A stretch of 64,000 nt of DNA from Marsupella aquatica (taxonomy: Eukaryota > Plantae > Marchantiophyta). Position 1 is the stretch's first letter. Each line of letters begins with the position of its first letter. The notes beneath the pieces were generated by a model, which was given only the letters and a program-made list of their open reading frames with translations, was not told the DNA's origin and did no database searches. Positions 1 through 60,280 of the stretch are shown here, one piece after another. The stretch spans positions 8,063,241-8,127,240 of the forward strand of contig OZ316899.1 in the NCBI GenBank assembly GCA_973895155.1, in the 5' to 3' direction. Made by a program: the position numbers and the translations under genes.

Positions 1-3000
1 CTCCCCCGTCAGAGCGTGGCCCAGGTTAAACGATTTATCCATCCCAATGGTGTACTTCCGGTAGTGCTCCTTCCTGATGACTTCAACCTGGTTCCGCAAG
101 CTCGGGTCCAGGCTCGCATCAAGTTCAGCTAACCGAACTCCTCCGTACATGGGTGGAACCGGGATTGGTCTCAGGATTGGAGTTACTTCCTCCAACTACG
201 GGATGGACAGATCCCAGGAGACTCGTTTCTTATGTCTCGGTCTCGGGTTTTCGGCCTCGGGCGGTTGCTTGGCTGGTTCGTGGTCACGAGGCTCTGCTCT
301 GGTAGAAGCAGCATTGGCTCCCTACTTAGCTAGAGTCATGTCCTCCGTATCGATGAGTCGTTTTTGCGTTTCCTCATACCGGGCAGTCGAGGTGCTCGGG
401 GTGGGCTCAATAGCAGCCGTCGGGTAATTCAGGAGATGTGTTTCGCGGGTTGCCTCAACTCCAAAGACATCTTCCTCGGACAGGGACGAGATGGGTTCAA
501 TCATGTTGAGTTCCTCTTCCTCCGAGGTCTCCGAATCATATTCCTCGGGTCCTTGTGGGGTTTCGCCCTGATAATCGTCCATTGCCCATGATACCCATAC
601 TGTGGGTGTCCCAAACCGTAGCTCCTTCTTTCCCCAATCCGTGACCACACGGCCACCGTACAGCCACGGCCTACCTAGGAGGACCGGATAAGAGGAGGGC
701 CAAACCGGCCTCATGACTTGGAAGTTGAGATAGAACTCCACCCCTCCTACCAGAGTGAGTACCCGTGTAAGCGTGCCCAATGGAAGTACCCTTGCCCCAT
801 TTGCTAATCTGATAGCTCAGGCTGTGGGTTGATACGTGAGGTATCCTAACTTGACTGACGTTTCTTCAGTCATGATGTTGACTCCCGCTCCTCCGTCTAC
901 AAGAACCATCTTGATGGTACAATTATTAATTTCAATCAAGATATCCGGCGCTCCCACGTCCTTGCATATCATGTTGCAATCCGCGATCCCAACTCGGGGT
1001 AGTCGTCTCCGTCGTCGACCCGTAAGCAACTCCCTCAGTTGCCGTCTGTACTATGGATTGTTTTGCAGCAGTTGTCCTACCGTTGCTGTAACCGGGCAAC
1101 TCTTCACGTCTTCCTTAATATCATAGTCCTCCTTCTTTTCTTCCTTCGGCTGCTGCTTGGCTTCCTCTTGCTTATCTTGCTTCTCTTGCTCCTGTCGCCG
1201 GGCTGTCTCGGCTGCTTTGGTGTCCTTATCGATTGCCTTCTGGTATTCCCGAGCTTCGTAGGCCTCCAACTGTTTCTTTACCAATTCTTTGATGCGGGGG
1301 AAAAATAGCTTCGGGTCATCCCGTCGGTAGTCATCATCCTTCTCCGGGTGTATATCTATTGCTGGTTGCACCGGAGTAGTATCTTGCTTTTTCCTGTGTT
1401 TCTCCTCCTGCTTCTCTTCCTTCCGTTCGGCTCTTGTTGACACACGATAGCACTCAGCCTCGTCAGATGGATTAGGGTGTTCCGCCACGTCCACCAGATT
1501 CACCCACTCGGTGTTGTCATCTTGCCATTCCACCGCAATCATTTGGACGACCGCATCACTCATGGCCGGTGCGCCCTGGGCTGGTCTTGCTGCATTTGTT
1601 CGAGCGGCCATTACCAATGGACAGTTGGCCATGGAATGAGCTTCCGTTTTGCAGACTTGACAAAGTGGCGTGCCACGGCCATCCCCCTGGCATCTTGGTT
1701 CTGTGCATTCCCTCGCGAAATGGCCGGGCTTCTCACAGTTGTAACAAACCGGGGATCACCAAATCCCTGGTTTAGGAGGAATGCTAGGGTTACTGATAAC
1801 TTGAAAGCCTCGGCCATTGTTTGGGTAGGGGTATGCAGTTCTACCTGCTAAGTTACGCGGACCCACCGGTGAAATCTGATACACCGAATCAGGAGGGTCT
1901 TCAAAGAAATACTCCGTGGACTCCGCTTCAGGTCCCGGGTTGTCAACATCATCTAAGCCCACCTGGTGGACTCGGTTCTTCCATCTTGGGCATTCTTGCA
2001 CGACATGCCCGGATTGGAAGCACTTTGAACACCACGCATGGGCTCAAATCTCAGATGGTTTCTTCTTTTCCACCAACTTTTCCGCGAGATGTACTGATAG
2101 TGCTTTAAGTCGATCCGTGATTTCGTTAAGCTTGTCTGCTTCGGCAGCCTTTGCATCGGGTATCGTTCTGCGAGTACAAGATTTGATTTTCCCCTCCTTC
2201 CTAACCCGCCTTTTCTTCTTCTTGCTCCGGCTCTCACTCTCCGAATCACTTTCTGATGAGCTGGAGGTGGAGGACCCGCTGTTCAAAGTTGAATCCGAAC
2301 TAGATTCAGTCTCCGAACTGGACGAGGTCGAACGATGTTTCTTCTTCTTCTTCCGTTTCTTCTTCTTCTCGTCGTCTGATTTGGAGTCACTGTCATTGAA
2401 GGTCTCGTACTTGCCCTTCTTGCGGTGTGCCCGTTGGCTTCGCCGGGAGTTATAGGTGGACTCCCGGTAGGTTTTGGCGCACGCTATGGCTGCTTGCATT
2501 GAAATTGGATTATTCTGGTGCACCCAGAATTGCATATTCGTGGGCAAACCATGGAGGAACCATGTAAGCTGGAGTGCATCACCAGGCCTGGGCCGTATTT
2601 TGGCAGCAAGTTTTTGAAACTTCTGAATGAACTTTCGCAGGGACTCTTTTTTTCCCATGCGGAGCTGGCCGATCTTTAATAGAGAGCGCTGCTCGGATCC
2701 AATAGCACGAAACTCTTGCAGCAACGCAGCTTGGAATTGTGCCCATGTAGTCCCGGGTGGCAGTGAGTTGTACCATGGGCGAGCTTCTCCCCGCATCACT
2801 CCGGGGAGGACGGTTAACTTAATGGCGTCTTCCCCGTTAGCCTTAGCAATGGCTTCAAACTCATCCAACCATTCATCCGGATCATCCCCATGACGCCCTT
2901 TGAAAGGTTGATAATGAAACCGCGATCGTTGCGATATTTGTGGAGGAGCTTGGGCAGCGCGGGCCATCGGTGGGGCGGCTGCCATAGGTGGTGGCGGTGG

Positions 3001-3189
3001 TGGCGGTGGTGGAACAGGAACCGCAGTAGGACCGGTCGAACCGGACCCCGAAGGTCCCGGTGGTATGTTCATTCGTCGGGGTGATTGCGAGTCCTCCGAG
3101 CCCGAAGAATCGGAGCTTGTTGTGGTTGCACCTTCTCGTTCGCTAGTCAATCTCCTGAAGTAAGCTGCTTGAGAATGAGTGACGGGCAT
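1..3189 (-). pseudogene. Degenerate gag-pol of element A (capsid, CCHC knuckles, aspartic protease, linker before RT)
   Basis: ORFs 2044-3189, 1051-1632, 817-1029 and 322-780 are collinear with the intact 54271-60252 polyprotein (FKGRHGDDPDEWL, CYRVSTR, PKLFFP, TATVGQL, VLVDGGAGVNIM, LGRPWLYG). They are broken by stops and frameshifts. Confidence 0.9.
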
Positions 3190-3282: not shown

Positions 3283-3300
3283 CCCCTCCATCTAGCGTCA
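3283..3300 (-). promoter_or_regulatory. Primer binding site, tRNA-Asn type
   Basis: TGACGCTAGATGGAGGGG has 2 mismatches to TGGCGCTAGAAGGAGGGG, the complement of the plant tRNA-Asn 3' end as recalled. It lies 12 nt after the LTR end and about 95 nt before the gag ATG. Confidence 0.75.
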
Positions 3301-4211
3301 AAACAAAGGCTATGTCACGTCATCAGCCTTGGCCTTAACTCGGGCTTCAGCTTTAAACGGGCACCTCCTTCGTAAATATGAGGGTTCGGGCAGGGAGGGA
3401 AGCGCATAATGCACCTAATTCACGTAAACTAGCACTAAGTGCGCCTACTGTTAGATACGGACATCTCCTAGGTATGGTTTATATTCCGCCGCCGGAACGT
3501 ACCTTAGTCGATAATAGGATCGACCCCGGCTTAAGGACTTCTAAGCCTTCGTGTTGTCCGCCTTCGATCCGGATTCAATGATACAGGTCCTCAACCCGTG
3601 CTCGCAACCACATACCCGCAAGCTACACCCCGTGCACGACTCGGGTAGTGCGTTCGGCCTGGCGTTGCCACCTATACACGAGATTCACACACACATACAC
3701 GCGTACAAGCATACAATCTTGATTTACACGAAGGAAATAATGGGAAAGGATTTTACTACATAGGGGACATGTGCGTACACTTGGTTGACCTGACAGCTCC
3801 GGAATGAATAGGTTCAAGGCCGAGAGAGTATACTACAACGGAGCCCGGCTCCGCACTCGCCCGATGAGCTTAGTCCTACCCCCTCCCCTTGGTACTCTTT
3901 CACTCCCAGAGGTCGGGACTCCCCGCGCATACCACGGATGTCCAACTCTGAGACTAAAAACCCCCCCTTGCCTCTACCGAGGGGTGCACTAAATACTAAG
4001 GGCCGGGGAACGGAGTGTCCTCCCGCCCAAAGATTCATTGACTTAGGTCCTAACTAATCTGTCTATCAGGCCGAAAAATGGCTGTGTCTTATTAGAAGAT
4101 CCTAATCTACGCAGGCTGGACAGCATGGCAGTGCTGCTGTAACTAAGGCAGGTGCCTGTCCCAATAGCCTGACTTAGCTACTCCTAACCCTATTCTATTC
4201 CTACTCCGCCA

Positions 4212-6817
4212 TTAATGCCTGGCACGCTTGCCAGAGCCGCCCGAGTGGGAGCGGCCATCCCGTTGCTTACGAAGTCTGTCGTTGTCTGCCTTGAGGAGCT
4301 GGACCTGGTCCAGCAAAGATTCGTTCTCTCACTTCGCCGCATCCGTCTCCTCCGCTGCCTCCTGGCATGCCTCCTCCAGCTGCTGGGCGTCGCTGGTCCT
4401 GCTTCTCGGCTTTGGTTTGGAGCCGTGCCACTTCGGCTTGTAGCGTGGCTATCTCCGCAGTGTCCCGCTGGGCCTGTTCTTCGGCCTCCTCCAGGTCCTT
4501 TTGCCAGATGATAGTTTGATTCTTCAAACTGTCAATCTGGTTCCGGAGTCGTGCAATCTCGGCCTTGTTCCCAGCTTTGGCCTGCTCGGCTAGGGCGGTA
4601 AGGGCGTGCGCCTTTGCTAACAAATCATCGGCGGCTGCAACTTTGGGTCGTAGTTGCAGAAGCTCAACCTCTTGAGCCGCAACTTTGTTCTTTAAGTATA
4701 CGGACTCCACCCGGTACCGCTCTATCCTCTGAAGGGCCTCTGACTGGGCCCAACCTGCCTTTACTACGGCAACTAACTCCTGATTGAAGAAACAGGCTAC
4801 CTTCCGAGCCATGAACTCCCCGGTATCCCGGGCAATTTGATGAGAGAAATTTCTCAGAAGCCCGTTCAGAAATGTACCCGGTACGAAGAGTTCCGGGTGG
4901 TCCAGGTTGTGCCTGTCCGGAGTTGGGCACGGGCAGATGTCAACACAAGCGGGGGCCGGGGCAGTGACATCCAGCCCTGGGGACGTAATGTTGGAAGGGG
5001 CTGGAGTGTCCTCCTGCAGCAATATCCGGTTCTCCGGAATAGCCACCGGTGGGTCTTTTGGAGACCCGGGCTCGAGTAAGACCTCCGCTGTACCAACTTC
5101 TGTACTTAGCCCGGCTTGTTGGATAGCATCAACGGTTGCGATAACCGACCCATCCGGTACCTCCTCGGTTACGATTACAGCTACTTGTGGAGGTGGGGTG
5201 GGTGAAGCTTGCGTGTCCGCTGGACTTTGGGCCTCGGGTTGGGGCCATCTCTCCAAGGCCGAAAAACCCATCTAGCTGGGACCAGCTTTGTAACGTTGAC
5301 ACGGGGAAGGGTTCGTCGATCAAACCAAGCGTACCACTCAAGAATGATCTCGATGTGGCTAGCGAAATACGCCTTCCCGCCAATGTACAACGTCTTCCTT
5401 CGCCGCTCCATCTCTTCATGGAATTTCTTAGCGAAGTACGACGCCCACTTCCTAGGTCGATAGTTCTCGACCTGGATAACCTGGGCGGCGGAGATCTCCC
5501 CCCGGGGCTCCATCATGTGGAGGGCGTACCTTTGGAACTCCAGTCGCTCAGCTATCTCGGGGATGAGGCAGGTCCTCATCACAAACCCGTTGTCCACTGC
5601 TCCTTCTGAGGGAAAACTCGAGGATTGGTACTTGGCTCCCTTGCCCCCGGGAGCCCGTGATTTGACTCGATGGTCACCTTCGGGTAATCCGAAGATCATC
5701 TTGAGCCGTTCTTCCTTAGGGACATATTCCTTCCCCGTAGCCGAGTATGCTGACGTGCGTCATCATAATTCTTGACGAATTCTGTCATGTCCTCCCCGTA
5801 GTACCTGCAAGTGTTCTAGGGCAGAGCGGCGAGGTGCTCGAATCCCTGAGTCTTCAGGTACACCGCATGCTTGGGATGGAGGATGTTCTTATGCACGTTT
5901 TCCCCCATGCGGTGCATTGTCACCTTGGCCACGGCTACCGTGGCCAATGGTAACCCGGATGCAGTGGCGGGTTCCTTCCTCTTCTTCCCCCGTGATTGGC
6001 TCGGGGAAGGTGACACCTCCCCATCCTCTCGATCGGGCATAGGTAGTGCTACCGCCGTTAGTATTGGTCCCGAGGCGGCCACGGTCACCGTGTTGTCTGC
6101 TGGAGCCGCTCCTTGGGTCCGAGCATGGGGAGGGGATGATGTAGTGTCGGCCCCCTGAGTGTTTGCTCCTCTGGGCCGCCTGAGCAAGGGTGGGGTAGCC
6201 TCGTCGTAGTCGCTAAGGTCCACAGCGTTGATGACAGAGCGTACTTGTACTGCTGGCGGGGCGATCGGCGGTGGGGGTTGGCTAGGCTGAGCCTGAGCCT
6301 GAGTCTGCGTTGGTACGGGTACGGGTATGGGGTCCACTGGGCTGGCGCCGGTGGTTGCGGGTCTAGTTCCCATGAAGCTCTGCAGGTGCTGGTAGAAATT
6401 CTCCGAAGCAAGTGCAGACAACCTTGTCAAACGGGTAGTGCTGGACTCGCTGTTGATGATAGCCCAAACCTGAGTAGGGATGTGGTCGAAGTGATGTCAT
6501 TGCAAATCGATCGTACCCGGGATATTGAAGAACTCGTCCGGAAGCCGAAGCAATGCTTCCCAGAAACTGATATATTTGTCTCTGTTGAAGAAGTACCCAG
6601 ATACCTCTGCTGGTCGGTAAAGCTCGCTCTGAGACGGGTAGTCAAAGTTAAGGATGTAGTGGTGTCGTCCTGCTAGGCGGATGGCTCTCTCATACTCGCG
6701 TTCGATTTCGTATCGGCATGGGTTGGCATGTTTCAATGAGTCGGCCAAGTGTCTTCCGGTAGATAGGAACTGCGTCCAGAATCGAATGGCCGAACTGGAG
6801 AGGATCGTGTGCGACAT
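4212..6817 (-). pseudogene. LTR-embedded accessory gene (about 860 codons): N-terminal domain, conserved central domain, coiled coil
   Basis: ORFs 6497-6817, 5816-6430, 5181-5699 and 4267-5271 join through two in-frame stops and several 1-bp frameshifts. Homologous by eye to the LTR-C protein (FNRDKYISFWEA~FCKDKIVGIWEA, IFGLPEG~VFGLPMG, EPRGEISAAQV~LPRAEIGKAQV). Confidence 0.8.
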
Positions 6818-6917
6818 TCAGAGGAGATAGTAGTGGCGACTTAGAGCGAACAAGAGAGCTGGGGTCGAAGCTAGCGCGTGGACTGATGGACTGGTGCACT
6901 CCAAAGGGTCGGCTCCC

Positions 6918-6925
6918 TTTTTATA
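6918..6925 (-). promoter_or_regulatory. Putative TATA box for the LTR-A embedded gene
   Basis: TATAAAAA about 100 nt upstream of the ATG at 6817. Confidence 0.45.
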
Positions 6926-7283
6926 CCTTGAGGGCTTGTCGATCCCCCGACATCTCCTCGTTGCCTATAGGCTGAACCGTTCACGTTTGTAGTGTACCGG
7001 CCACTCCGCCGGTCTGAGTCACTGCGTGTCAGTGGACGCCTCCTGAAGTTTGTTATACGGACCAGAGGAGGGGCCCCTCCACGCTCGTAACCCGGGCGTG
7101 CGAATGGCGACGCGCCGCCAGCCCAAACATGAATTCCCTTTATTGACTAATGATTTCCTACTCATAATGGCTACCTAAATACTGTCGTTATGCTAATCAT
7201 AGCGGCCTAAGATACCCCTAACGCGCGTGCTAGGCACGGTTTAGACCGAATTACTCATTACTCGCCGTACCGGCGGCGTCACA

Positions 7284-7661
7284 TGAACATCAAGCAACTT
7301 TACAACTGTGCACTTCTTTGCTACTTTACGGGCAAAACCCCTCTCCTATCTGTCTTTTGGGAGTGGGTCAAAGATGTGATGATGAGCCATGGGAATTGGC
7401 CGGTCCTGCAAGTCAAATATGTGGGAAAAAGTTTTTACATGATAGTCTTTGAACACCCAGACCATCGGGACCTGGCGCTGCAATTGGCCCCCTGGTTTAT
7501 GGAACGCCGCTTTGTGTACACATTTGCATGGGACCCATCATTTGACGTGAAAAGTGAGAGCTTCACTAAACTCCCAGTATGGATCAAAATTCCGTTTCGT
7601 GCCCTTACACTCGAAGGGTGCAGGCGCAAGATAGCTAGCTCGCTGGGACAACTGCTATACT
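7284..7661 (+). pseudogene. LINE ORF1 fragment (DUF4283-like)
   Basis: VKYVGKSFYMIVFE...APWFMERR...WDPSFD...KLPVWIKIPF...IASSLGQLL follows the plant L1 ORF1 pattern. Confidence 0.8.
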
Positions 7662-8716
7662 ATGATTGTTGTATTTACATGAAGGATGTGGAGAATTACT
7701 CACGTTTTGGTTACATTGTGCTGGCATTGTACGTGGATGACATGCTGATCCTAGCTGAGAATAAGTCTGATGTTGCCCATCTGAAAGCAATGCTGAGTAA
7801 GGAGTTTTCAATGAAGGACTTGGGTCAGGCCAAGAAGATACTAGGGATGGAGATTCATCGTGACAGGGAGCAAAGGCAATTATGGTTGTCTCAGAGGCAG
7901 TATTTGGAGAAGGTACTTGCCAAGTATGGAATGGAGAATGCAAAACCAGTTGGTACTCCATTGGCCTCCCACTTTAAACTCTCAAAGAATGATTGCCCTT
8001 CTAGTGAGAGTGATAGACTGGCGATGAAACATGTTCCCTATGATAGTGTTGTGGGTAGTTTGATGTATGCAATGACATGCACTAGACCTGACATTGCCCA
8101 CACTGTTAGCATTTTGAGCAGATTTATGGCAAATCCTGGTAAGCTTCACTGGGAAGCAGTGAAGTGGGTTTTGCAGTATCTGAAAGGTACCTTAGATTGT
8201 GGGATCTTATTTGACGGTAAAGCAGACTCTACATTAGAGTTGGAAGGTTTTGTAGATTCAGATTATGCTCGTAACTTGGATAACAAAAAGTCTACTACAG
8301 GCTATGTGTTTATGTTGGGTGGAGGTTGTATCAGCTGGAAGTTGGCAACTCAATCTTGTGTTGCGTTGTCTACTACTGAGGCTGAGTACATGGCTGCATG
8401 TGAGGCAACCAAGGAGCTGATCTGGCTACGGAGATTGGTGAGTGATCTGGGTCTTTCACCTGAAAGACCGGTGCTGCTGTGCGACAGTCAAAATGCTTTG
8501 CATCTGGCTAAGAACCCTGTGTTCCATGCCAGGACAAAGCACATTGATATTCGTTATCACTTCATCCATGAGGTGATTGAGACGAAGCAGATGTTTTTGG
8601 AGAAGGTGGCTTTAGAGGAGAATGCAGCAGACATGCTTACCAAAGTTTTACCTAGCAGTAGCTTTAGTCATTGTGTGGATATTATTAATGTTAGGGCCAA
8701 ACCAGTGACTATGTAA
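7662..8716 (+). pseudogene. Copia reverse transcriptase (C-terminal part) and RNase H
   Basis: LYVDDML, GSLMYAMTCTRPDI, FVDSDYA, STTEAEY and TKHIDIRYHF. 5'-truncated and fused in frame to LINE ORF1. Confidence 0.92.
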
Positions 8717-8783
8717 ATATGTTACTTAGTTACATATTGTATATCACCTGACTCATTGTGTGAACTTGAGTCAAGGTGGAGAT

Positions 8784-9078
8784 TGTTAGGAATTGACTCT
8801 AGTTTCCGACATAGTTAGCTTGGCCTTACTAGGGTTAGTTTTAACCCTAGATTACATTAGGATAAGATCCGCTTAGTTTAGGCCCACTCATCTTGGCCCC
8901 CTTGGGGGGTATAGGCTGGAGGGAGAGCACTCTCTCCCTCATTCTTCACATGTACTCTCATTTGCTATGGAGCCTTCAGGAGTTTCTCCACTTGGGGTGT
9001 CTCGTTGGTGTAGCGTTTGATTGAGTGTCTCTCATGTTTCCGCATTGTTGTCTAGTCTGGAGCCGACGGTTTCTTACA
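8784..9078 (+). repeat. Copia LTR
   Basis: TGTTAGG...CTTACA preceded by PPT CAAGGTGGAGAT. Matches the LTRs at 21359-21651 and 27450-27742. Confidence 0.92.
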
Positions 9079-9148
9079 AGTGGATCTCATTTCACTGCAT
9101 GTGATGGTGCGCTCTTTGTCATCAAAGATGATGTATCTTTGATTAAGG

Positions 9149-11597
9149 TGTCACGCGATTGACATGGGTCTTAACACCAAAAACGTCACTATGGGTGCCA
9201 AAACCATCTCCTTGTACCTGAGGATCACGAAGGGATGTTGTGAATGCCGATAAACACCAGTTTATGCCCTTAACACCAGACTATCATAGCAAGACTCTAT
9301 CACACATCACCCAAGCTCAATCCCAAGGAACCAAGGTTGGGGATCAGATCTGCGCTCATGATAGTTCTGGTGAGAAGGGGTCTTCATATCGGGCCCGTAC
9401 ACACAGGGCCTAGCACTACGGTGCGCAATAGGTCTATACATATGCTTACTGTCATAGGTATGTTTCTATTCCGCCGCCGGAATGTACCCATAAACCAGTG
9501 ACTCCTGACTGATTCCCGGCTTAGGGACTTCTAAGCCATTGCCCCACCACTCTGCCATTCCACTCTCAACAATCAGAGCTATGACAGTCCTCACCCAGCC
9601 CGCTTCAATGCACCCGGTACACCTCTCAGTGGCGCTGCTAGTTCCATCATACACTCAGATTGCCTCACACACACACACATCCATGAGAGAAATGAGGCCT
9701 GAGAGGAAAACTCAATTAGATTCAAAGATGTGCACAATAGTTCACTGAGAACACTTGATCCGAATACTAGGGCCGAAGGCTGTCTCCTCCAGATTGTGAC
9801 GTGCTTGCCCTGCAAGCCCCGTGCTTGCCATGCAAGCTCAATCCTGAACCTGAGCCCGGCTCACTCCAGATTGCGACGGCAGATTGGACTCGAACCAATC
9901 CCGTACTTGCCTTGCAAACTCAATCCTGAACTCAACCTCCTTCACTGCACTTCATTCTTGGGGGCACATACAGATCTCACACCTCCAATTCAGAACGTCA
10001 AGTTACGCATGCATAGTTGACTCGACTTCAAAGCTGGTACCAGGCCTAACGGCGATCTACCCCAGACTGCAATGAGGCCCGGCCTCATGCTTGCCCTGCA
10101 AGCTCAGCTCTGGCCATAGATCCCTTAGTGCTCTCCACCAGACAAAGGCCGGGACTCCCCATGGATCACGTAGCCTTGCCAGACTGAATTGTAAATGCTC
10201 CTCCTGCTGCCCCTTAATCAGTACCTCAGCCTCCCTAATGTGCCCACCGCAAATCGAATTGAAATCCTCCCCACAGTTTACAATCACCAATACATCACCT
10301 ATCACCAAGGCTCTGTATCGGGGGAAAAGAACCCAGTTGTGCTGCCCACTAGAAAGAGCCACAATCCAGCTCGCAAACCGAGCAACCCGTTGCTGTGAAG
10401 CTTGGCTGATTACTCCCTGAGTAATAGCACAACCAAGCTCTCCCCAACACGCAGCGTCCAAGTCCAGCCTTGCTTGCACAGAGCTCCTCCCCGCTGCTCA
10501 GTCTAAGTGAGATCACACAACTGAAGTCCCCCCCCCCCCTTGCCTCTACCGGGGGCTGCTCTATATACTCTCATACTGAGCCCAAATGGGTGGATACTAC
10601 GCTGCTGGAGCCCCATCCCAGCCCTAACAGAGCCGCCACTATCTCTAACTACTGAACCCTAACTCGCAACTTTATTTCTATCTCGAATTGGCTATGTACT
10701 TCGGATTCGGCCCTCCTCCATAGTTTTCGCGAGCTTGCGCCTCCTCTCCCGATTTCTCTATTTAACCATTTTCTGCGTGGATAGCACCGTTGGAAGCGGC
10801 TTGAGCTCCTCTTTCCAACGAGGTCAATTATAGCCGATTTGGTCAAATACACAGAGAGTTATGCCCCCGCAACCGAGAGGGGGTACTCACTGCTGCGCTA
10901 ACCCGAGTTACATAGCTAACCCGAATTTGGCTAACCTAGCTATCCTATCTAACCCGAGTAGAGCTAACCCGTGGTCTCGGGTTAGGCCGCTACCCGCTAT
11001 CCGCTATCCGCTAACCTAGCCTAAGCTGAGCCCGAATCCGAGCTTACCTATGCTAACCTGAGGCCGCGCTGACCTGAGCTAAGCTGAAGCCGTGTTGACC
11101 TGAGCTAAGCTGAAGCCGTGCTGACCTAAGCTAAGCTGAAGCCGTTCTTACCTGAGCTAAGCTGAAGCCGTGCTTACCTAAGCTAAGCTGAAGCCGTGCT
11201 GACCTGAGCTAAGCTGAAGCCGTGCTCACATAAGCTAAGCCGTGGTTAACCCGAAACTGAAGCCGAATCCGTTAATTTCGGCCACAAGTTAACCCGTCAC
11301 ACTAATCAGGCCGTATCTTTCTTAATACACCTCCGTTTCTCAAGTGTTTTATATCGATTTTACTCGCCTTGACCAGATCTTTCCAATGCTCTTTACAGAT
11401 CCGGATTTGGTGACATATTGAAAGAGATATGGTCGTCGACCACCCGCGACATAGCTTTTATTTCCCTACTCTTAACGCCATGATTGCCCTTATTCTTGCC
11501 ATCTTGCTAATTGTTATGCAATATCAATAGCTACTCCTTGCATACAGCAACCTACTTAATCAGATTACAAAATAAGGACCACGTCATTGGCGTCACA
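9149..11597 (-). mobile_element. Gypsy solo LTR-B (2449 bp)
   Basis: TGTGACGCC...CGTGACA termini and TSD TAAGG (9144-9148, 11598-11602). Removing it restores the Copia sequence GATTAAGGCGCTACG. Confidence 0.88.
11069..11244. repeat. 26-bp tandem repeat (about 6.5 copies) in LTR-B
   Basis: Unit CTGACCTGAGCTAAGCTGAAGCCGTG with minor variants, preceded by degenerate GCTAACCCG-type repeats from about 10895. Confidence 0.9.
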
Positions 11598-11760
11598 TAA
11601 GGCGCTACGACAAAATAATTTGTACATCTTGGAAGGAGATGTCATTGCTCCTAGACTGGAGCATGTGGATTCTGTGGTGGAACGTTTGGATGCAACGTCT
11701 GATTGAGTGTCTCTCATGTTTCCGCATTGCTGTCTAGTCCGGAGCCGACGGTTTCTTACA

Positions 11761-14700
11761 GGGGGATCTGCCTTGTCCGATCATGACCCTGTGATTTTGA
11801 CAATGCGACTCTCTGAGAGGCCTTTGGAGGAAGGGAGAGGTCACTTCAGATTTTTCATGGCTAACCCGGCTCTTCTGAGGAGAGTGGAGGACGTGCGGCT
11901 ATTGGAGGCGGCTTGGATGGAGGATCGGGAAAGATTTGTGGACCCGCACATCCGGTTTGCACGGGCTAGCAGCAGGCTAAGGAGGACCTACATTAAATTG
12001 CAAGCCAAGCCCAGAGAATCTGAGGAGGAGATGGCGTTCTTAAGGGCGCGTTTGAGGACTCTTAAGACGTCTATTCTCGACTCACATTCGGAGAGCCATA
12101 TGGTGGAATACATGGAAGCAAAAGACTCACTACATGCAGCAGAGATAGAAGAAGCTCATAGGGGTCGGCGTCTAGCGCGGGTTAAGTGGCTTGGGGAAGG
12201 AGATGAATCCACCAGATTCTTTTTCGCCACTGTGAAGGCAAAGCGCTCTAGGGAGACCATGTCCTCTCTGACAAAGAGTGACGGTAGCTCTATCACGGAC
12301 CCCCAAAAAATTATAGAAGAAGTGGAAACCTTCTGCACAACACTCTACTCGCCCCCCAGACTATCCCAGGCTGAGAAAGCGGAGCAGTTACTTGCCCGGG
12401 AGCGGCTTCTGTGTCACACTCACTTTGCATTATCAGCCTTAGAAATTGAGAAGATGGATGCACTTCCAACTGCGCTGGCGGTGAAGGAGGTCTTATGGCT
12501 CCTCCCCAAGGACAAGTCCCCTGGACCAGATGGATTGACAGCAGAAGTGTATAGGACGTGCTGGGAGTTCCTTAGCGAGGATCTTGTGGAGATGATCCAG
12601 GCCTTTTGGCTCACGGGAGAGCTTGACCCTGACATCTGCAACGGAATCATCAAGCTCATCCCTAAGAAACCTGAGAAGCGCTATCTGAAAGACTGGCGCC
12701 CACTCACAATGCTGAACACGGTCTATAAGGTAATTGCTAAGATCCTGGCTTTAAGGCTGAAGCCCATCTTGCATAAAATCATCAGCCCACAGCAAACTGG
12801 TTTCATCCCGATGCGGCATATTCTTGAGAACATCTCCCTAGCCTGGCTCACATGTGACTGGATTAATAATAGGAAGTCAGAAGCTCTTTTTCTGAAGCTG
12901 GATTTCAAAAAAGCTTTTGACAGGGTCTGCCATGATTACATTTGGGAATGTATGCACTTGCTAGGAATCAGCGGCCGTTTTATTCTACTGGTGAAAGCCT
13001 TGTTGACGCAACCTTCCTCTAAAATTCTTGTGAATGGACTTCTCTCGGGCCCTATTACTCTCAAACGTGGGGTCAGGCAGGGGTGCCCACTCTCACCGTT
13101 ACTTTTTGTGATCTCCACTCAACCGTTGATGGACTTCTTGGCCGCCGAGATAGAGGAGGCAGACTCAGTGGACTGCAGATCTCAGACGAGCTCACCATTT
13201 GCTACCGACTTTTTGCGGATGACGTGGGTATGTTCATTCCGGCTACTGAGGAGGATTTCGACAATACAACACAGGCATTAGGTTGCTATGAGATGGCCTT
13301 GGGGGTGAAGCTGAACTTGGAGAAGTCTGTGGTGATACCGTTGGCTATGGAGTTGGTGCCAGAGTGGCTCAAGAACACCGGTTGCCATATCAGCAGGCGC
13401 GGTGAGGTTCAAAAATATTTAGGAGCTCCTTTGGGGGTGGGCTTGCTTACGGAACAACTCCACCAATTCTGCCTGGACAGGATTAGTCTGCGGTTGTCGG
13501 CTTGGACAAACAAGCTACTATCATTCACTGGTCGATCACTGCTAGTTAAGCATGTCTTGCAAGCAATTCCCATTTATCATGTAATGTATCTTAAGTCCTC
13601 TGCAGGGCTGGCCAAGAAGCTGACTGCACTATGTCGGGACTTCCTTTGGGGATACAACCCTGCTGGGGGTCGAAAGGTACCGCTGGTGGCATGGGCCAAG
13701 ATGTCTCTCCCAAGAGCTGAAGGGGGACTTGGCTTTAAAGATTTTTGCAGTCACTCTGATGCTTTACTATCACAATGGTTCACTAAGGCTCTGAACTCTC
13801 CTGACCTGGAATGGGCAAGAATGCTGGAGGCCAATTTGGCTTTGATGGGTTGGCGTAACTATAAAGTGATCCGTAGGAACCAATATTCATTCCAGGACAT
13901 GTTGCTACTGTGTTCTCCACGCTCCTTTTGCGGATTGCCATACACTGGGGGGCTTTGGAGGTGCTGGGAGCTGGTGCGGCCCACCTCTCCTTTGTCCCTG
14001 GGAGGTTGGGGACTCCGGCACGTTGGAGTATTCATGACACTCTTCGTTGCCTGCAGGGGTTTAATTCTCTCCCGAATGACGACTTGGTTGGGATTACTGC
14101 TCTTTGTGGGAGACTTGGCTTGAGATCAATCGAGGATGGCTGGTCTAGAGAGGACGTTGGTTGGAGAGACCTGCCACTAAGATGGCAAACAATGAGAGGT
14201 TTCACATCTGAGCACAGGAGACTGGCTCTTGAATTCGTAGAGCTCCTTTGGAGCTCAAGTGCTTGCAGGTTTGACTGCTTCCTCTATGCCAAACAGTGGC
14301 GGTGGGTAGACAAGCCTGAGAATTTGAAGGACTTCAAGATTGCTAATTGCCGCGTCTACCAATTTTTGAGGCCACAAATCTCAGTTTTCTCTCGGTGGAA
14401 CCACATTTGGTCTGTGGCACGCTCTGAGAGCGAATGGGGCTCTGTCTGGTCTCAGCTTTGGAGTTCTGACTTGCCGGCTAGAGGCAAGACGTTTATCTGG
14501 TGCATTCTTGTAGGTGGCCTTTTTACTCATGCGCAGGCACTGCATTTGGAGATGAGCAATGGGGACTGCAAGCTCTGCTGTGGCACGGTGGAGACCATCC
14601 CTCGCCTATTCGTCTTTTGCGTCCATGCTGATTGCTGTTGGCGGTTATGCCAATCATTCCTGTGTGTACTCTATTTGCCGTTTGGGCAGGGTTTGCTGCC

Positions 14701-14764
14701 TTTGCTAGATGTTGCTTTCGGGAAAGACCCTGCCCATGTTGCAAAGCTTTTTTATCTTGTATAA
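11761..14764 (+). pseudogene. LINE ORF2: endonuclease C-terminus, reverse transcriptase, zf-RVT
   Basis: SDHDPV, KSPGPDG, WRPLTMLN, KLDFKKAFDRV, GVRQGCPLSP, LFADD, YLGAPL and CKLC..ET..LF..C. Frameshifts near 13150 and 13975. Confidence 0.93.
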
Positions 14765-15200
14765 GATCTTGTGGTCTATCTGGCTGGGCCGGAACACGCA
14801 CATGTTCTAGGCTGGTGGCAGTAGAGTCTTTGACTTGGGCCTGGTTCTCTCGGAGACGGCTGATAACCTTTATGCGGCTAACCGGGGGCTTCCTCTGGGC
14901 CGGAAAGGTACCCGCATCCTTAGAGCCAAAACATGGATTGATGCCCTTCGTAGGAACTGGATACAACACGGCTGCGGCCGTATCACATCTGGCTTATGAG
15001 CTGCTTGCCGCAGGGGCTACTTTCAGTGCTTCTCTTATTGTATTGGGCCTTTTCACACTGTTGCTTTGGCCCCCATGTGCTTGTTTTCACATTGTTGCTT
15101 TGGTCCCCTTGTTGATTGGGGTCCTGGTTTGTGGCCTGTTTGGCTGTCTGTTTGCCCAGGCCGTGGGGCTTTTTGCGGCCGCCTTTATCTTTATAAAAAA

Positions 15201-16422
15201 TCATTTCAAGGAATTTTTCTGCTTACCATCACCTTCTTCTACGATCTTAATCATGAATCGCGGGTACTCTGACCTTGGGAGCTTCCAGTGCAATGCATGA
15301 GTTACAAACTCCAATCTCTCTTTTATCCTATCATCTGTGCACTGTCGCATTTGATATCCTCTTGTATCATCAACTTCCTTGTGTTGGGGAAACAAAGCCG
15401 GTTGCCATGTTTTCCCCATCCTCTTCTTGATCTCAGCTCCTCTGGTTGGTAATCTGAATAGTTCTCGAAGTGTCCCTTGATCAGTCTTGATTAGTTGTCC
15501 CCTGTAGCTCCCTTGATTCCCTGAAGCTGTCCATGTTGTTATGAACTCGTTGTAATCTTTTGGTTTCAGGTTGGTGATTGTCGCCCATTTTGAATGAACA
15601 AATTCCCCGAGCCCCTGGTTTATCAAGAATTGCTTATGACTGCTACCTCGCATGTTCTCCAATATATGTGGCTCCATCCCTTTGAATTTCAGAACATGTT
15701 TTCCCGTATTGTGATCCTTCTTAACCCCACCTCTTGTTCCCGTACTTTGCCACTGGTTCCTCCTCCTCTTCAGTAGACTCCTCCTCAGTTTTGTCCTCAT
15801 CCGATTCGATCACTCGACTCTGCGCTTTACCCTTACTTCCGTTAATCGTTATAGCACGCCTCAATCCTATCCTTTTGGAAATTGTCATGTCTGGGCTTGG
15901 TGGTGTTGCTTTGCTGATTGCCATGATCTCCACATCCACATCTGCTCCTTTGATCAAATCATCCATTGTGGTCTCCGGTTCTGCTTCTTCAACTCTCTGC
16001 TTGTCCTTGGTCTTCTTCAATAGGCTCCCATCCATGATGGTCGATTTCTCCTTTGAATCATCTTCATCATCCTCCTTCTGCAATTTGACCCGATTACCCC
16101 CTTTTAACAACATTTCTTCTTGCATCCTTGCTTCCAGCAAGTCCGCAGTTTGCTCCTCCTGTATAGCTGTTACCTCCTCCGTTCCTTGTTCTTCAATCAG
16201 TTCCTCACCTTCTTCGTAATCCTCTATTTCTTGTACCATCTCTTCCACTCTTGTGGAACATTCTCCTTCCTCACGGTCCATAGTTCCCGCGCTGAGTTCT
16301 TCCTGTGGAATACTACTTCCCATTTCCGGTGTTTCCAGCAACTCGGCCACTGTCAATTTCTTCATTGGTGTATCGTCTTCAAATGACCCTGATCGTTTGA
16401 GTGTGATCAATTTCATTTTCAC
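15201..16422 (-). pseudogene. Accessory ORF of element D: acidic N-terminus plus the conserved central domain of the LTR-gene family
   Basis: ORFs 15721-16422 and 15201-15800 are joined by a frameshift. QGLGEFVHSKW, EFITTW, LFRLP, GYQMRQC and RLEFVTHALHWKLPRSE align by eye with the LTR-A and LTR-C proteins. Confidence 0.75.
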
Positions 16423-16615
16423 CGGTATTGAATAGCGATTAGCATCAACCCTAATCCACTTGAATCTTAGTTCTCTCTGATAATCGCTCCACTCTGCCGA
16501 TGCTCACAATTTCTTGGTTGGGCATAAATAGGATCTTTGATCAAGCAATGTCCTTATAATTGCCAAGGTCTCTCTTCTTTTTCCCTGTGCCCAATTGCCA
16601 TGTGCTTTTAACAGG

Positions 16616-19600
16616 TGTGATGCCTAGCCAGGAATCACTAGGCCGGTTTACATGGTAAAAGCAGGAGTGTACCCTGGAAACACCTTAGTATAGTAACAAG
16701 ACAAGGAAAATATAAACAATTAAGGGTGACTATGGAACCCGGGCCGAGGCCAAAAGTAAGGACGCCGGGGGAGAGAACACGATTAGGGTTAGGGCGCACT
16801 AAGCGTCGGCGGCTAGGGGTGACCAACGGGAGGGAAGACCAGAGGAGGAGAGGGGTAAGGACCGCTCGCAAGGAATAGTGGCTCATTTGCAAGCACAAAC
16901 TGAGTAGACCACTACGGGAGGCCAAATACTGTAGCTGCTTAGGCAAGCACTCTGGGTGGGAACAAATACCAACGATCGAGTCAAGGAGGGTATGAGCAAC
17001 GTCAATCAAGCGACACATTTTTGGGGATGCTTGTTCGAACGGGCAACTGAGTACATTGGGACTTACGAGGACAAAGAATTGGAGAGAGCAGCTCAAGAAC
17101 GGCAGGAGCTCGCTCGACTGTGGGAGTTGCAGAAGTCTGCCTTCTTAGGAGGAGAACTCATCAAGGCCGAGTTCTTGTGGACTCCTACTGCCAATCAGCT
17201 CGATGACCTTCTGTTTTGCAAAGACAAAATCGTCGGCATTTGGGAAGCCATCAACCGCTGCAACGACGCGCACTGGGAGTTGAAGGGTAGCACGGAAGGG
17301 TGGACAAAGGCAACTGTGTTAGAAGAAACATCCACGACAGCCGAGATGAAGAGGAAAGGAAACAACAACAAAGAGGCCACCCCGGCAAAAAGAACGAGGT
17401 CGGCGGCACCAAGGAAACCAGCAAAGCAGCAGAACAGGAGGCAGGGAGAAGCCAAAGAGGAGGAGGTCGATCCCATCAATGCCATTCCAACAAATGATGA
17501 CACTTGGAAAGGCTGGGCGGCAACCCTACCAGAGGAAGTGCAATTACATTTTGCACGGGAGGAGGATGCATGCTTTACGGCCATGTAGACCAAGAAGTAC
17601 CAGGGCTTCATGGCCGGATCCGGCTTGGAAGCCTTTGTAAGATTACCATGGCTGAAGCCGGAGGTGCCGGACTCAGACTTATTAGAATTCGTGGGATCAT
17701 GGGAACCCGAGACCAATTCCATGAGGGTGTATGGGAAGGATTTCTATCTCACTCCCTGGGTGATTGCCGAGGTGTTTGGCTTGCCGATGGGTAATAAGAC
17801 CAAGGTTGATACCAGGAAGACCTTACCTGACAAGGAGTTCCGGTTGTTCCCAGGACCATCAACGAAGAATGGCTTCTTCCGAAACACCTACACCAACCCG
17901 CACATCGGAGAGATGATCGATTTCTTGCGGGTGACCATGCATTGTAACTTGCCGAGGGCAGAGATCGGCAAGGCTCAGGTCTACCTGGCAAAAAGGCCAG
18001 ACCCAAGCCGGGATTACAACGGGTACCTCCTCAACCAACTGAAGAAAAACTTGAAGGAGGAACAGCAGGTGATCGGCGTGGGAAGCATGTCCCGGCTTGG
18101 CTATCACATGCCGCTGTTGTGCCGGTATGCCAGAAGTCAAATCTTTGTCCCAGTACTTCCCCTATCGGCAAGGGCACCGGAGGAGGTTCCGGAGCAGAGG
18201 CCGGCAACAGAAGAGCCCAACCAGCCTGTCAGTCCTACGATCGAGCAGGTGTTTTGGCCAAGGAAAGAAGACTTGCCGATGCAGCAATCAGGCATGCAGA
18301 ATTTGCTGAAAATGCTGGAGAAGGAGAGAACGGCACCAGCAACGGCAACGGCGCCGGTACAAGACACTGCCCCAGAGGCCGGCCTAAGCCGACTTAGGAG
18401 GGAAAACCCCTTTACCGGAGCAGAGGAGAGAAGGAGGCCGGAACACAAGCCGGGAGTGTGAATGTATGTGGGAGCCTCAAGCCCCGAATCGGAGGCAGAG
18501 CAGCCTAAGGCTCCTTCCCGCGGAGAGCAGAGGGAGAGGACAGCCTAGAACCGAGAGGAGGAACAACGGCCCGTGATCTGTGAGGCCATTTTCACGGCAG
18601 GACCAGGGGAACAGAGGGGGAAGCAGGGAGTCCAAGCAGTGGAGGAGGCGGTGGAGGACTACAGCAATGATAACTCCGGCTATGGGTCGGATCATCATGT
18701 TCCAGGAGTAAGGACCTATGGCCAATTTATCCCCACGCTTCCAAGAGTAGTTTGAGGGGACCCCACCCAACAGAGTAGCCCCGAGTCTCCCCCACCAGAG
18801 GTTGCTCCCCCGAGCTTTGACGGCATAAAACAGACGGCACAAGAATTTCAGGAGCGACTTAGGGAGGAAGAGAAAGCAGCCCTGGCTAGGGAGAAATATT
18901 TACCAGGAGGAGATTGGCCGGAGGACATCAGGCGGCTTGCCAAAAAAAGAAGCAACCCTCTTGCCACCGTAGAAGAAATCCGCAAGGCGGCTTGGGAACA
19001 GAGGCCGAGGTGGTTGATGCCGATGAATTCTACTTACTCCACCTATGCTAAGGATAGAGCCATGGAGTATGGGGAGATGTGTGGGGACCTGGCGCTCAGC
19101 ATCTTTGGGGAGGAGTTGGAGCAGGGACCTTTCGTCCAGAAGGAGAGGTTGGAGAAGCACCGATTAGAAGAAGCGGTGGCTTTGGAGAGAAGCAAGAAGG
19201 ACGAGGTCATTCGGCGGCTTAGGGAGAAGGAAGCCAAGGTGGAAGTCCTGCAAGCGGCCAAGAAAGCCCAAGATGAGTTGCGGATTAAGCGGCATGAGCT
19301 AAACATCATGCAGGGGCAGTTGGATACCGCTTAGTCTGACAATCAGATTATCAAAGATAAACTGACTCGGACCCAAGGAGAGTTGGCCGGCACAGTCAAG
19401 GAAAGAGAGAAATGGAAGCGGGAGCTAAGGGACGTAGAGGAGGCCCACTTAACTGCCAACAACCGGGCCATGGCGGAGACTTAGAGAAGGGAGAGGGCGT
19501 TGAAAGGAGAGCTCGAAGATATCCACGGAGCCCTTGAGTAGAAGGAAGCAGAGTTAGGGAAATCCTATCAAGGGATTATTGCGCTGTAGCAGGAGCTTGC

Positions 19601-21293
19601 GTCCCTGACGACCAGCTTCAAGGCCAACCTGCGTGAAAAGGATGACCAGCTCGACCAGACTTATGCCAAGATGAATAAGATGGAGTCTGTGGTCGTAGCA
19701 GAGCTCGACAAGGAGCTAAGAGCAACCCAGGAGGAGAGGGCTACCTTAAAGAAAGAATTGGAGGAAGCCAAAAAGGAGCTGGAGGCGCGCAAGGACTTGG
19801 ATGAGACCCAGGAGGAGTTGGAGGAAATCATGAGGAAGATGGAGAACCTACAGCGGCGGGCCGACAACCAAACGGAGCGGCTGAAGAAACAAGCCACAGT
19901 ATTTAAATGCTTGGCTTCATCAGGTCCAACTCCAATTGGGGCAACCTAGTTACTAGGGGTAGTATTGGCCGAAGGACAAGCCGAGACACTCACCCCGGTG
20001 CCGGAGGTAAGTGGTAAGGGGAAGGAACCGGCTGTCAAAATAGGGAAGAAGAAGAAGCGGAAACCTTCTAGGTCTGGGAGTTATACGGCTTCTCAAGCCG
20101 TTGTGACCAAGAAGATAAACCCGGCACCAACCTCCGGCATTGGCACGGCGGTGGATCCACCAGTCCTAGGAAGTGGGGATGGCAAGGTCGAGGCCGGGAC
20201 AACCAGTTATGAAGCCGAGGTACCAGATCCTCCACTAGAACATGCCGGGGAGGCCGTGGCCGATGCTGAGGCCAAAGCCGATGGTGGACCCAGTCAGGCC
20301 GATGAAGAGTTGACTCGGTCCGGGGCAGGTAATCTGTCAGAAGACGGACCAATGATAGTGGTTGCGGAGGAGGCGTTGGGGGCATCCATTGAGGACCAGC
20401 CACCGGGGTCGTGACGGTGTAAGGGAGCCGTCCCTTTTAGGGAGGGCGGACGTGGAGGTAGGAGGCGTGAGTGGGCAGGGCAGGCGCTGATCTCCAAGTT
20501 TAGACTAAGGATCAGGATCAGGAGACAGCCCTGACACTTAGATTAGTGGGATTGCGGATCCACGAGTGAGGGCGACACTTGTGCTCCTGCCTTGCTGTAC
20601 ATAGGTAGATTACAGTTAGGTAGATTACAGTAAGTAGATTAGGCGTACGCTGCAAGGAATCAGGCGGATCCACAACCAGGATAAGTACCTAGGCTGTAGG
20701 GAGTTCAGGGCCTCTTCTTTAACAAGTTTCTAGTTGCACCAGCAAGGCTGGGATCAAGTAGTAAGAGAAGCTCTCGGTTAGTTATACAGTGACCCTTGTG
20801 TATATTCATGTTTCCTCATACCTAAGAACTGAATAGAGTTGGCCTCATGGCTTAGTTTGCAGAGCTTGTGTATGAGATGTACTGTTTGTATGGCAAGTGC
20901 ATGGTATAACTCAGTCAGAAGGAGTCATTTTGTTATTTGTGTGTCGCATTAACTTGTGTGAAGAGTGCCCACATCAATGAAGGGAAGTAGCAAGGGAGTG
21001 AGAGATGGATGTGTCAAGCTGAGAGAGATCTTAGCGGCTTAACCAAGCCAAATTGGGGATCATTCCGGTGGCGGAATCCAAACATACCTAATGGAAGACC
21101 AGGTATGTATCTCATGACCCGATGAAGGATCTGTCCAGTATATGTGTGTAAGATGTTAATCGTAGTAGTAGAGGAGATTAGAAGCGTCCCATGCCGCTAA
21201 GCCACGGAAACGGCCTCATCGAGGATCAAACCTGCGGGAATCGGCTTGTGCGGGGGGGTTTCTTGGGTTTGGGGCGCCATGGGAAGAACCACA
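16616..21293 (+). mobile_element. Gypsy solo LTR-C (4678 bp), protein-coding
   Basis: TGTGATG...CCACA termini and TSD ACAGG (16611-16615, 21294-21298). No gag/pol and no internal direct repeats seen. Carries the 3' hairpin motif of LTR-A and LTR-B. Confidence 0.85.
16992..20414 (+). pseudogene. LTR-C embedded accessory gene (about 1100 codons, long coiled coil)
   Basis: ORF chain 16956-17588, 17610-18461, 19014-19334, 19671-19949 and 19965-20414, with stops and frameshifts. The TAG at 17586 is CAG in the second copy. Confidence 0.8.
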
Positions 21294-21358
21294 ACAGGAC
21301 ATGCAACTTTCCCGTTAAATGATTCTCAATACAAGGAATGGCGTTGTGGTTTAGTATG

Positions 21359-38800: not shown

Positions 38801-39250
38801 CTTCTCCAATGTCAAACTCTTCTTGGTCCGATGGATTTGCACCATGCATGTCTGGTTCTTCGTCCCCCTGTGCCTCTGCATCTTCATAAAGTGCATCCAG
38901 GTCTTGAAAAATGTCTGAAACCATCCTAGGAACATCTGCCTTGTCCTCATTAGAAGTCTCGAGACCTCCCTGTGGAACATACTCATCTTTGGCATTGTTG
39001 CCTACATGATCAGTGACGTTATGAAAGAATGCAGAGTGTCTTGCTGTATTCACATTTTCAAAATCTGCTTTCCATTCATCATCCGATGAATCCTCTTCCT
39101 CTGGCACATTCCACACCCTGCGGATTGGATGTCTTCCATGCCTTTGAAGATGAGAATGCACTTGGTTCAGGGTCATCGAGTGGTATCCTCATTTGCCTGA
39201 TCCATACCTTCAGCTGTCGTAGGCACCACTTGGCTATGTACCCTTTGCAC
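35891..39250 (-). pseudogene. CACTA Tnp2/TnpD transposase
   Basis: IHACPDGH..CPICG..RY, VLRHFPLIPRLQRL, GLSLDGANPF, YNLPPW, IDVMHIEKNV, GSMKTHDFH, FFDVMTHL, RWMYPMER and EPFVFPSQVEQVFF. Confidence 0.93.
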
Positions 39251-45810: not shown

Positions 45811-45998
45811 AACCTGAGATCACTCCTACAGATGCACATCTTGCCATTTCTTTCCCTGACACTCTTCCATCCAGTCAAGACAAGTCATGCCAAGTCAATT
45901 TTATCCCTACTCTGCATATCGATCCAAAAACCCCTCAGGAGAGTATTAAACAGTTTGTTGAGTTTGTTAGAGTCTCAGACCTTAGATCCCCTCCTATT

Positions 45999-54132: not shown

Positions 54133-54146
54133 CCCACCCTTGTTTT

Positions 54147-60252: not shown

Positions 60253-60280
60253 GTGTGTTTGCGGGGACGCTGCACACTTA

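What the first reader, a model, noticed from the sequence alone, without database searches (positions are those of the whole stretch)
3469..21090. Conserved multi-hairpin motif near the 3' end (putative U5) of three different giant LTRs
Seen at 3469-3547 (A, minus), 9455-9537 (B, minus) and 21036-21090 (C, plus), each 150-390 nt from the LTR 3' end. In element sense, hairpin 1 is GGCTT(AG)-loop-(CT)AAGCC. A middle hairpin differs in sequence but keeps pairing (GTCGAT/ATCGAC in A, CAGT/ACTG in B; absent in C). Hairpin 3 is TTCCG-G[CT]GG-CGGAA, followed by AAAC(C)ATACCTA. The flanks are unrelated. Inference: a structured cis RNA element for packaging, dimerisation, primer activation or poly(A) control, or a protein-binding site.
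Basis: partly seen in the sequence, partly recalled or inferred. Interest (0 to 1): 0.7.

Follow-up and report, generated by a model that had tools for sequence, protein, structure and literature searches.

The report
Conserved hairpin motif in giant LTRs
Three distantly related retrotransposon families in a probable liverwort genome keep the same small hairpin-and-tail motif near the end of their long terminal repeats, and it likely acts as an RNA signal, most likely the one that the element's Gag protein would use to pick its own RNA for packaging.

Summary
The motif is real at all three sites. It lies 156-306 nt from the 3' end of three giant Ty3/gypsy LTRs (A 3.97 kb, B 2.45 kb, C 4.68 kb), probably of a liverwort, that align at DNA level almost nowhere else. 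The core is hairpin 3, a 6-bp stem with a G[C/U]GG loop, plus an AAAC(C)AUACC tail. Its closing pair is A-U in B and C and G-C in nearly all A-family contig depth. One metagenome contig (L031) carries two tandem units with further paired changes. Hairpin 1 is shared by A, B and C. Hairpin 2 varies, with one paired change in a relative. Rfam finds nothing, and no known ribozyme core was matched. Structure is supported (about 0.8); function is inferred. Best guess (0.4): a sense-strand leader element bound by Gag zinc knuckles for packaging. The main rival is splice control, because the tail reads as a 5' splice site on the opposite strand. Covariation rests on few sequences, and no RNA data were available.

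The parts
3313..7283 (-). LTR A (5' LTR of a non-chromovirus-like Ty3/gypsy element), 3,971 bp, with an in-LTR ORF
   Evidence: TG...CA ends, no matching TSD, gag follows; one X7 contig leaves at 3313
3528..3547 (-). A hairpin 1 (7 bp, 6-nt loop)
3506..3525 (-). A hairpin 2 (variable; a paired U-A to G-C change in one X5 contig; loop positions 3514/3515 vary)
3483..3498 (-). A hairpin 3 (6 bp, GCGG loop; closing pair G.U in this copy, G-C in nearly all family contig depth)
3469..3482 (-). A conserved tail; can pair with 3500-3504; reads as a 5' splice site-like string on the + strand
3284..3300 (-). Degenerate PBS-like site 12 nt after LTR A; its match to a tRNA-Asn-type Tat PBS is recalled, not tested
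   Evidence: sequence; the same spacer-then-PBS layout follows the 5' LTR of element E
1620..3189 (-). gag of element A (broken by a stop and frameshifts) with three CCHC zinc knuckles starting at 2031, 1746 and 1662
   Evidence: Pfam PF03732 and PF00098; knuckle scan; best homologues from Calypogeia fissa
3961..3997 (-). Promoter-like box (TATA-like string then a G run) shared by A and B; function inferred
   Evidence: blastn E 4e-8 to 10533-10569
9149..11597 (-). Solo LTR B, 2,449 bp, TSD TAAGG, inserted in a rearranged copia copy; no ORF of 150 aa or more
9455..9537 (-). B motif: hairpin 1 9518-9537, hairpin 2 9492-9515 (8 bp, different sequence), hairpin 3 9468-9483, tail 9455-9467
10533..10569 (-). 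B copy of the promoter-like box
16616..21293 (+). Solo LTR C, 4,678 bp, TSD ACAGG, with a decayed in-LTR ORF (about 16935-20414) distantly related to A's
21018..21090 (+). C motif: extra hairpin 21018-21035, hairpin 1 21036-21049, hairpin 3 21062-21077 (GUGG loop), tail 21078-21090

Best explanation
The motif is a conserved hairpin-and-tail element near the 3' end of three diverged retrotransposon LTRs that likely folds in the sense RNA and is most likely a packaging or RNA-selection signal bound by the zinc knuckles of the element's Gag protein. Shown: the sequence, its conservation against eroded flanks, paired changes in two stems, and three CCHC knuckles in A's Gag. The ORF-less family B would keep the motif because it borrows Gag in trans.
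For: Conservation is patchy: hairpins 1 and 3 are kept and hairpin 2 is rewritten but still paired. The in-LTR proteins of A and C are only 23% identical, which argues for selection rather than recent exchange. Hairpin 3: 30 of 30 cells paired in 5 rows; 2 of 6 pairs change on both sides; closing pair AU/GU/GC/CG; 8 of 500 shuffles reach the covariation score; slid controls pair only 13-70%. Independently, position 3483 carries the G-C-forming letter in 361,446 of 361,630 depth in X1, 384,118 of 386,040 in X2, and all depth in X5 and X7, against A-U in B and C. The loop is G[C/U]GG in 5 of 5 rows. C family: 1 of 55 motif positions varies at the 8% threshold against 34 of 279 other positions, Fisher p 0.016. 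Tight segments fold better than shuffles on the sense strand (z -2.1, -2.7, -1.3, -2.9 with C's extra hairpin, -2.8 for L031) than on the antisense strand (-1.5, -1.7, +0.2, +0.1, -1.2). Retroviral NC binds a G-rich tetraloop in the HIV-1 Psi hairpin (PMC7599994, passages).
Against: No binding, RNA or packaging data. Only 5 rows were aligned. Both double-sided changes come from L031, which was picked after the fact from 14 pattern hits, and whose identity as an LTR element is inferred: its Elf1 is 54-56% identical to named plant proteins. In wider windows the folding signal weakens (A z -0.65; B sense -1.09 against antisense -1.59, with hairpin 1 lost in B's best fold). Within the C family the segment 21108-21151 is equally invariant (0 of 44). 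The helix enclosing hairpin 3 is absent in C and more continuous on the antisense strand in A. Element E, a relative with knuckles and 68% DNA identity to A in its protease region, has no significant match. Retroviral Psi usually lies 3' of the PBS, and in HIV-1 replacing the GGAG loop hardly affected packaging (PMC7599994, passages).
Confidence: 0.4

Rival explanations
1. Splice control. The tail is a 5' splice site on an antisense LTR transcript, or in the sense RNA a U1-like strand that pairs with and hides a splice donor, keeping genomic RNA unspliced. The hairpin would be the adjacent regulatory structure.
For: On the opposite strand the tail scores 7 of 9 to a recalled donor consensus in B and C and 6 of 9 in A (by eye). 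Both L031 units also read as donors, and unit 1 varies at the degenerate +4 position (by eye). In the sense strand, A's enclosing helix starts with an 8 of 9 donor-like string, and window C has an 8 of 9 string downstream that pairs with the tail. A's inferred 902-nt leader holds 13 ATGs. Antisense ORFs are common in the related Retand lineage (PMC11963269, passages).
Against: Strings scoring 7 or more occur about 2 per kb, and the reading was made after the fact. The sense donor is absent in B, and C's downstream donor is replaced in several family contigs (table 5c). The accessory ORFs here are sense to gag, so no antisense gene that would need a donor was seen. Splicing would not obviously fix a tetraloop sequence.
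Confidence: 0.2
2. A TAR/RRE-like or translation element: a host factor or the element's in-LTR accessory protein binds the hairpin to promote elongation, export or translation of a long, ATG-rich leader.
For: A and C carry a homologous ORF inside the LTR. It has 10 relatives at E <= 0.001, no significant Pfam match, and only weak Atlas leads to PMD/DUF1985 (0.87-0.88). L031 has an Elf1 elongation-factor ORF upstream of its motif. The leader is long and ATG-rich.
Against: The upstream ORF differs between A/C and L031, and B has none. The motif lies about 400-1000 nt 3' of the inferred promoter, not at the transcript start as TAR does. No binding evidence.
Confidence: 0.15
3. Primer activation or reverse-transcription control: the motif pairs with, or is remodelled with, the primer tRNA, like the HIV-1 PAS in U5.
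For: It lies about 170-250 nt upstream of A's PBS-like site. Element E, which has a different PBS, lacks it. HIV-1 PAS lies in U5 (PMC7599994, passages).
Against: No tRNA gene is in the window, so complementarity was not tested. The distance to the LTR end varies (156, 306, 203 nt). PAS is a short linear site, not a tetraloop hairpin.
Confidence: 0.1
4. No RNA function: a palindromic DNA protein-binding site, or a patch spread between families by template switching.
For: Contigs show mosaic subfamilies switching flanks around shared boxes, for example B-type sequence continuing after 3997. All three LTRs are homologous.
Against: Paired changes keep base pairing while changing sequence, and hairpin 2 is rewritten between two conserved blocks. 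A single transferred patch would be continuous.
Confidence: 0.1
5. A self-cleaving ribozyme of a new or permuted class.
For: Multi-helix layout with a conserved A-rich strand. B's tail and linker loosely recall the hairpin-ribozyme loop B (recalled). Ribozymes occur in retrotransposons (PMC6765202, passages).
Against: Rfam gives 0 matches up to E 5. The recalled residues are paired in hairpin 3 and not kept in A or C. Cleavage between R and the PBS would cut the genomic RNA (inference).
Confidence: 0.05

Closest known systems
Retroviral Psi hairpins (HIV-1 SL3 GGAG tetraloop bound by NC; PMC7599994, passages; the RSV tetraloop analogue is recalled)
   Same: Short stem with a G-rich tetraloop in the 5' leader of an LTR retroelement whose Gag has CCHC knuckles; multi-hairpin scaffold
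   Different: Lies inside the LTR, upstream of the PBS; no sequence similarity shown; invariant A-rich tail; no binding shown
HIV-1 U5 primer activation signal and SD hairpin (PMC7599994, passages)
   Same: Inferred U5 position near the PBS; a donor-like string sits in a helix in A
   Different: No tRNA complementarity tested; the sense donor is not conserved in B and C
OTA (Athila/Tat) non-chromovirus Ty3/gypsy elements (Neumann et al., PMC6317226, passages)
   Same: Very large LTRs (up to about 5 kb), 5-bp TSD, extra ORFs, non-Met PBS
   Different: Here the extra ORF lies inside the LTR in sense orientation. No conserved LTR hairpin was seen in the passages read. A's RT lies outside the window, so the lineage was not placed.
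Ribozyme-bearing retroelements (retrozymes, R2, L1Tc; PMC6765202, passages; PMC7761336, search listing)
   Same: Conserved structured RNA in a retroelement terminus
   Different: No hammerhead, HDV, twister or hairpin model matches

Membership tests
Any Rfam family | Covariance-model match | tested here: not met
   0 matches up to E 5 over the whole window
Conserved structured RNA motif | Compensatory base-pair changes | tested here: met
   2 of 6 pairs in 5 rows; G-C against A-U closing pair between families, and a paired change in hairpin 2; small sample, not R-scape
Conserved structured RNA motif | More conserved than neighbouring LTR sequence | tested here: met
   Across families only the motif and one promoter-like box align at E<0.05; within C, 1 of 55 against 34 of 279 variable positions, but 21108-21151 is as invariant
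Conserved structured RNA motif | Transcribed and folded in vivo on a defined strand | not testable with these tools
   No RNA run listed; folding favours sense in tight windows, mixed in wider ones
Retroviral-type packaging signal (Psi) | G-rich exposed loop in the 5' leader | tested here: met
   G[C/U]GG loop in 5 of 5 rows; leader position inferred
Retroviral-type packaging signal (Psi) | Cognate Gag with CCHC knuckles | tested here: met
   Three knuckles in A's gag; element E also has knuckles but no motif
Retroviral-type packaging signal (Psi) | Necessary or sufficient for encapsidation; NC binding | not testable with these tools
   Needs bench work
Dimer initiation site (kissing loop) | Conserved palindromic loop | tested here: not met
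   Loops of hairpins 1 and 3 are not palindromic; the near-palindromic linker in C varies at 21050-21051
Known self-cleaving ribozymes | Catalytic core consensus | tested here: not met
   Rfam blank; cleavage itself not testable
tRNA-like or tRNA-derived element | Cloverleaf with T-loop | tested here: not met
   ARAGORN 0 genes; third arm has a tetraloop; C lacks the middle arm
5' splice site (antisense) | Consensus match | tested here: inconclusive
   7 of 9 in B and C, below 7 in A; background about 2 per kb
5' splice site (antisense) | Used in spliced RNA | not testable with these tools
   No RNA runs
OTA (Athila/Tat) Ty3/gypsy | RT/RH/INT phylogeny | not tested
   A's pol lies outside the window; B and C are solo LTRs; gag and large LTRs are compatible

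The most novel reading that the evidence does not exclude
A lineage-wide RNA motif of early-land-plant Ty3/gypsy elements with covariation support: a G[C/U]GG hairpin plus tail that works as a Psi located inside U5, or as the response element of an LTR-encoded accessory protein. It would be a first concrete, testable packaging or trans-activation signal for a plant Athila/Tat-type retrotransposon, shared by autonomous and ORF-less families and extending to an Elf1-carrying element.
Probability: 0.35. Interest if true: 0.72.

Novelty: new variant of a known kind. Interest (0 to 1): 0.5.

Why it matters
How plant LTR retrotransposons select their RNA for packaging, and how non-autonomous families borrow that machinery, has little direct evidence (own knowledge; one targeted paper search returned nothing). 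A 40-nt core with paired changes and an invariant loop gives a small RNA to probe, bind and mutate. It would also serve as a marker for classifying solo LTRs that share no other alignable sequence.

Tried and rejected
No own genome is held, so no genome-wide collection was possible. Rfam: 0. ARAGORN: 0. Viral contigs: a loose pattern gave 19 loci, none with hairpin 1 or LTR context, judged chance; a strict pattern gave 0; gag relatives 0. Prokaryote genomes: 3 hits, about what chance would give by my rough estimate. Metagenomes: 14 hits, 13 dropped as chance (no hairpin 1 or second unit) and L031 kept. Those dropped loci also score with model R1 because they were found by the same pattern. No RNA holder was listed; this says nothing about expression. 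Contig depth peaks over the motif were not used to rank conservation, because summed contig depth is not copy number. I first placed A's end at 3273 and moved it to 3313; a self-priming check from the first position found only a 7-nt match. A protein search with C's in-LTR ORF found nothing in the word-index search but 10 relatives by phmmer; Pfam on 7 of these 10 named only one weak, probably unrelated hit. The Atlas on L031's second ORF was uninformative. Model R1 found no further significant copy in the window, including E's 3.2-kb LTR. Four look-ups of earlier findings returned nothing. Eight paper searches listed no description of this motif. Subscription papers, repeat databases and supplements were not seen and may hold one. 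Hairpin-ribozyme, tRNA-like and kissing-loop readings were rejected as in the membership table.
Full report
Setting. The window is a nest of plant transposons: copia, gypsy, LINE and CACTA domains. The best homologues of the gag next to site A are Calypogeia fissa proteins (43-49% identity) and one Riccia protein, so the host is probably a liverwort. No genome is held for the window.

Observation. B (9149-11597, minus, TSD TAAGG) and C (16616-21293, plus, TSD ACAGG) are solo LTRs. C's end is confirmed by contigs from three runs that leave at 21293-21294. A (3313-7283, minus) has no matching TSD and is followed by a spacer, a degenerate PBS-like site and gag, so it is a 5' LTR. One contig leaves exactly at 3313. 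All three begin TGTGA[C/T]GCC. The motif ends 156, 306 and 203 nt from the LTR 3' ends. Among the three LTRs, blastn finds at E<0.05 only hairpin 3 plus tail (all three pairs), hairpin 1 (A-B) and a 37-nt promoter-like box (A-B). A and C also share a decayed in-LTR ORF at 23% amino-acid identity. The LTRs are therefore old homologues in which the motif has outlasted nearly everything else. The core pattern occurs 0 times in 200 shuffled windows.

Evidence from relatives. Seven public runs were listed as holding the A/B region, none on record as RNA; I laid 4 of the 7. Their coded organism labels differ, but I cannot say they are different species, and X1 may be the source. On A (40 of 205 difference rows shown), positions 3481 and 3483 differ from the window in almost all depth of all four runs. 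The change at 3483 makes the closing pair of hairpin 3 G-C, against A-U in B and C. Changes at 3514/3515 fall in the loop of hairpin 2. One X5 contig end shows hairpin 2 with its last pair changed on both sides. On C (complete table of 39 rows at 35 positions), only linker position 21051 varies within 21036-21090: 1 of 55 against 34 of 279, p 0.016, positions not independent. The neighbouring 21108-21151 is just as invariant (0 of 44), and the stretch between tail and 21108 is replaced by longer purine-rich inserts in several contigs. Three X5 contigs join hairpin 3 at 21058 with unrelated upstream sequence, hinting at further families.

L031. A metagenome scan gave 14 hits, of which 13 look like chance. 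L031 carries two tandem hairpin-3-plus-tail units, only one of which the pattern required. It also has an Elf1 ORF upstream, a TATA-like string, and a weak match (E 1.3) to the LTR of window element E. Its LTR nature and host are inferred, not shown. On the five-row alignment, 30 of 30 cells pair and 2 of 6 pairs change on both sides. The closing pair occurs as AU, GU, GC and CG; 8 of 500 shuffles reach the covariation score and 41 of 500 the pair count. Both double changes come from L031. The loop is G[C/U]GG in all five. Hairpin 1 is not in L031, so hairpin 3 plus tail is the core.

Folding. Tight segments give sense z of -2.1 (A), -2.7 (B), -1.3 (C; -2.9 with its extra 5' hairpin) and -2.8 (L031), all better than antisense. 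In wider windows A falls to -0.65 and B favours antisense slightly (-1.09 against -1.59), while C and L031 stay sense-favoured (-3.27, -2.87); hairpin 3 forms in 8 of 8 folds. Several stems contain G.U pairs in the sense strand, but the helix enclosing hairpin 3 is more continuous on the antisense strand in A and missing in C. Sense is favoured, not proven.

Mechanism. By inference from the promoter-like box and the GU-rich tract upstream, the motif lies in U5 and so in the 5' leader of genomic RNA. An invariant G-rich tetraloop on a stem that tolerates paired changes suggests protein contact at the loop. A's Gag has three CCHC knuckles, and NC binding to a G-rich tetraloop is the retroviral precedent (PMC7599994, passages; the same review says the loop can be replaced with little effect on HIV-1 packaging). 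I put a Gag-read packaging signal at 0.4. Against it, relative E has knuckles but no motif. The tail also reads as a 5' splice site on the opposite strand and could pair with donor-like strings in the sense RNA of A and window C. With 13 ATGs in A's inferred leader, splice or translation control is a serious rival (0.2 and 0.15). Primer activation (0.1) could not be tested. A DNA site or recombined patch (0.1) and a ribozyme (0.05; Rfam blank) are least likely.

Novelty. The motif is absent from Rfam and, beyond chance, from viral and prokaryote collections. It was not found in eight paper searches or four look-ups of earlier findings. Papers read as passages only: PMC6317226, PMC12885004, PMC13468544, PMC11963269, PMC7599994, PMC6765202; no supplements were read. 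Structured leaders are a known feature of LTR retroelements, so this is a new variant of a known kind: real, probably structured, function untested. Interest 0.5.

Noticed in passing
window 4267-6780 (-) and about 16935-20414 (+); second C-type copy 53009-53865 and 63483-64000: LTRs A and C carry a long sense-strand ORF inside the LTR, with its own TATA-like box in A (about 6925). No significant Pfam family; weak PMD/DUF1985 leads; 10 relatives by phmmer. An accessory gene inside an LTR is unusual.
   Followed up: partly
L031 1124-1414 (-): Intronless, diverged Elf1 (transcription elongation factor) ORF directly upstream of an LTR-like segment that holds the tandem motif; close relatives (73-98%) exist in other metagenomic assemblies.
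   Followed up: partly
window 53866-63482 (+): Element E: intact-looking 2050-aa gag-pol ORF, TSD AAGGA, 3.2-kb 3' LTR but only about 285 bp of 5' LTR, apparently deleted between short GACA repeats. It lacks the motif and shares a hairpin with a GUGACAG loop with L031 (63220-63238).
   Followed up: partly
window 3300-3312 and 54133-54146: Both A and E have a 12-14-nt spacer ending in a T run between the LTR end and the PBS-like site, longer than the 0-5 nt used as the search range in PMC6317226.
   Followed up: no
window 3422-3445 (-) and 9410-9428 (-): A and B share a further short GCAC/GTGC hairpin downstream of the tail.
   Followed up: no
window 21108-21151 (+): A segment invariant among C-family contigs but not shared with A or B; possibly a second, family-specific element.
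   Followed up: no
window 11008-11266 and 61230-61354: Tandem arrays of 26-nt and 25-nt units inside the 5' parts of LTR B and of E's LTR.
   Followed up: no
window 39868-40647 (-): BRCT-domain ORF next to a CACTA transposase region (35891-39188).
   Followed up: no
window 44200-46694 (+): Two long ORFs without a significant Pfam match upstream of the gypsy gag-pol at 47851-52990, possibly a 5' extra ORF.
   Followed up: no
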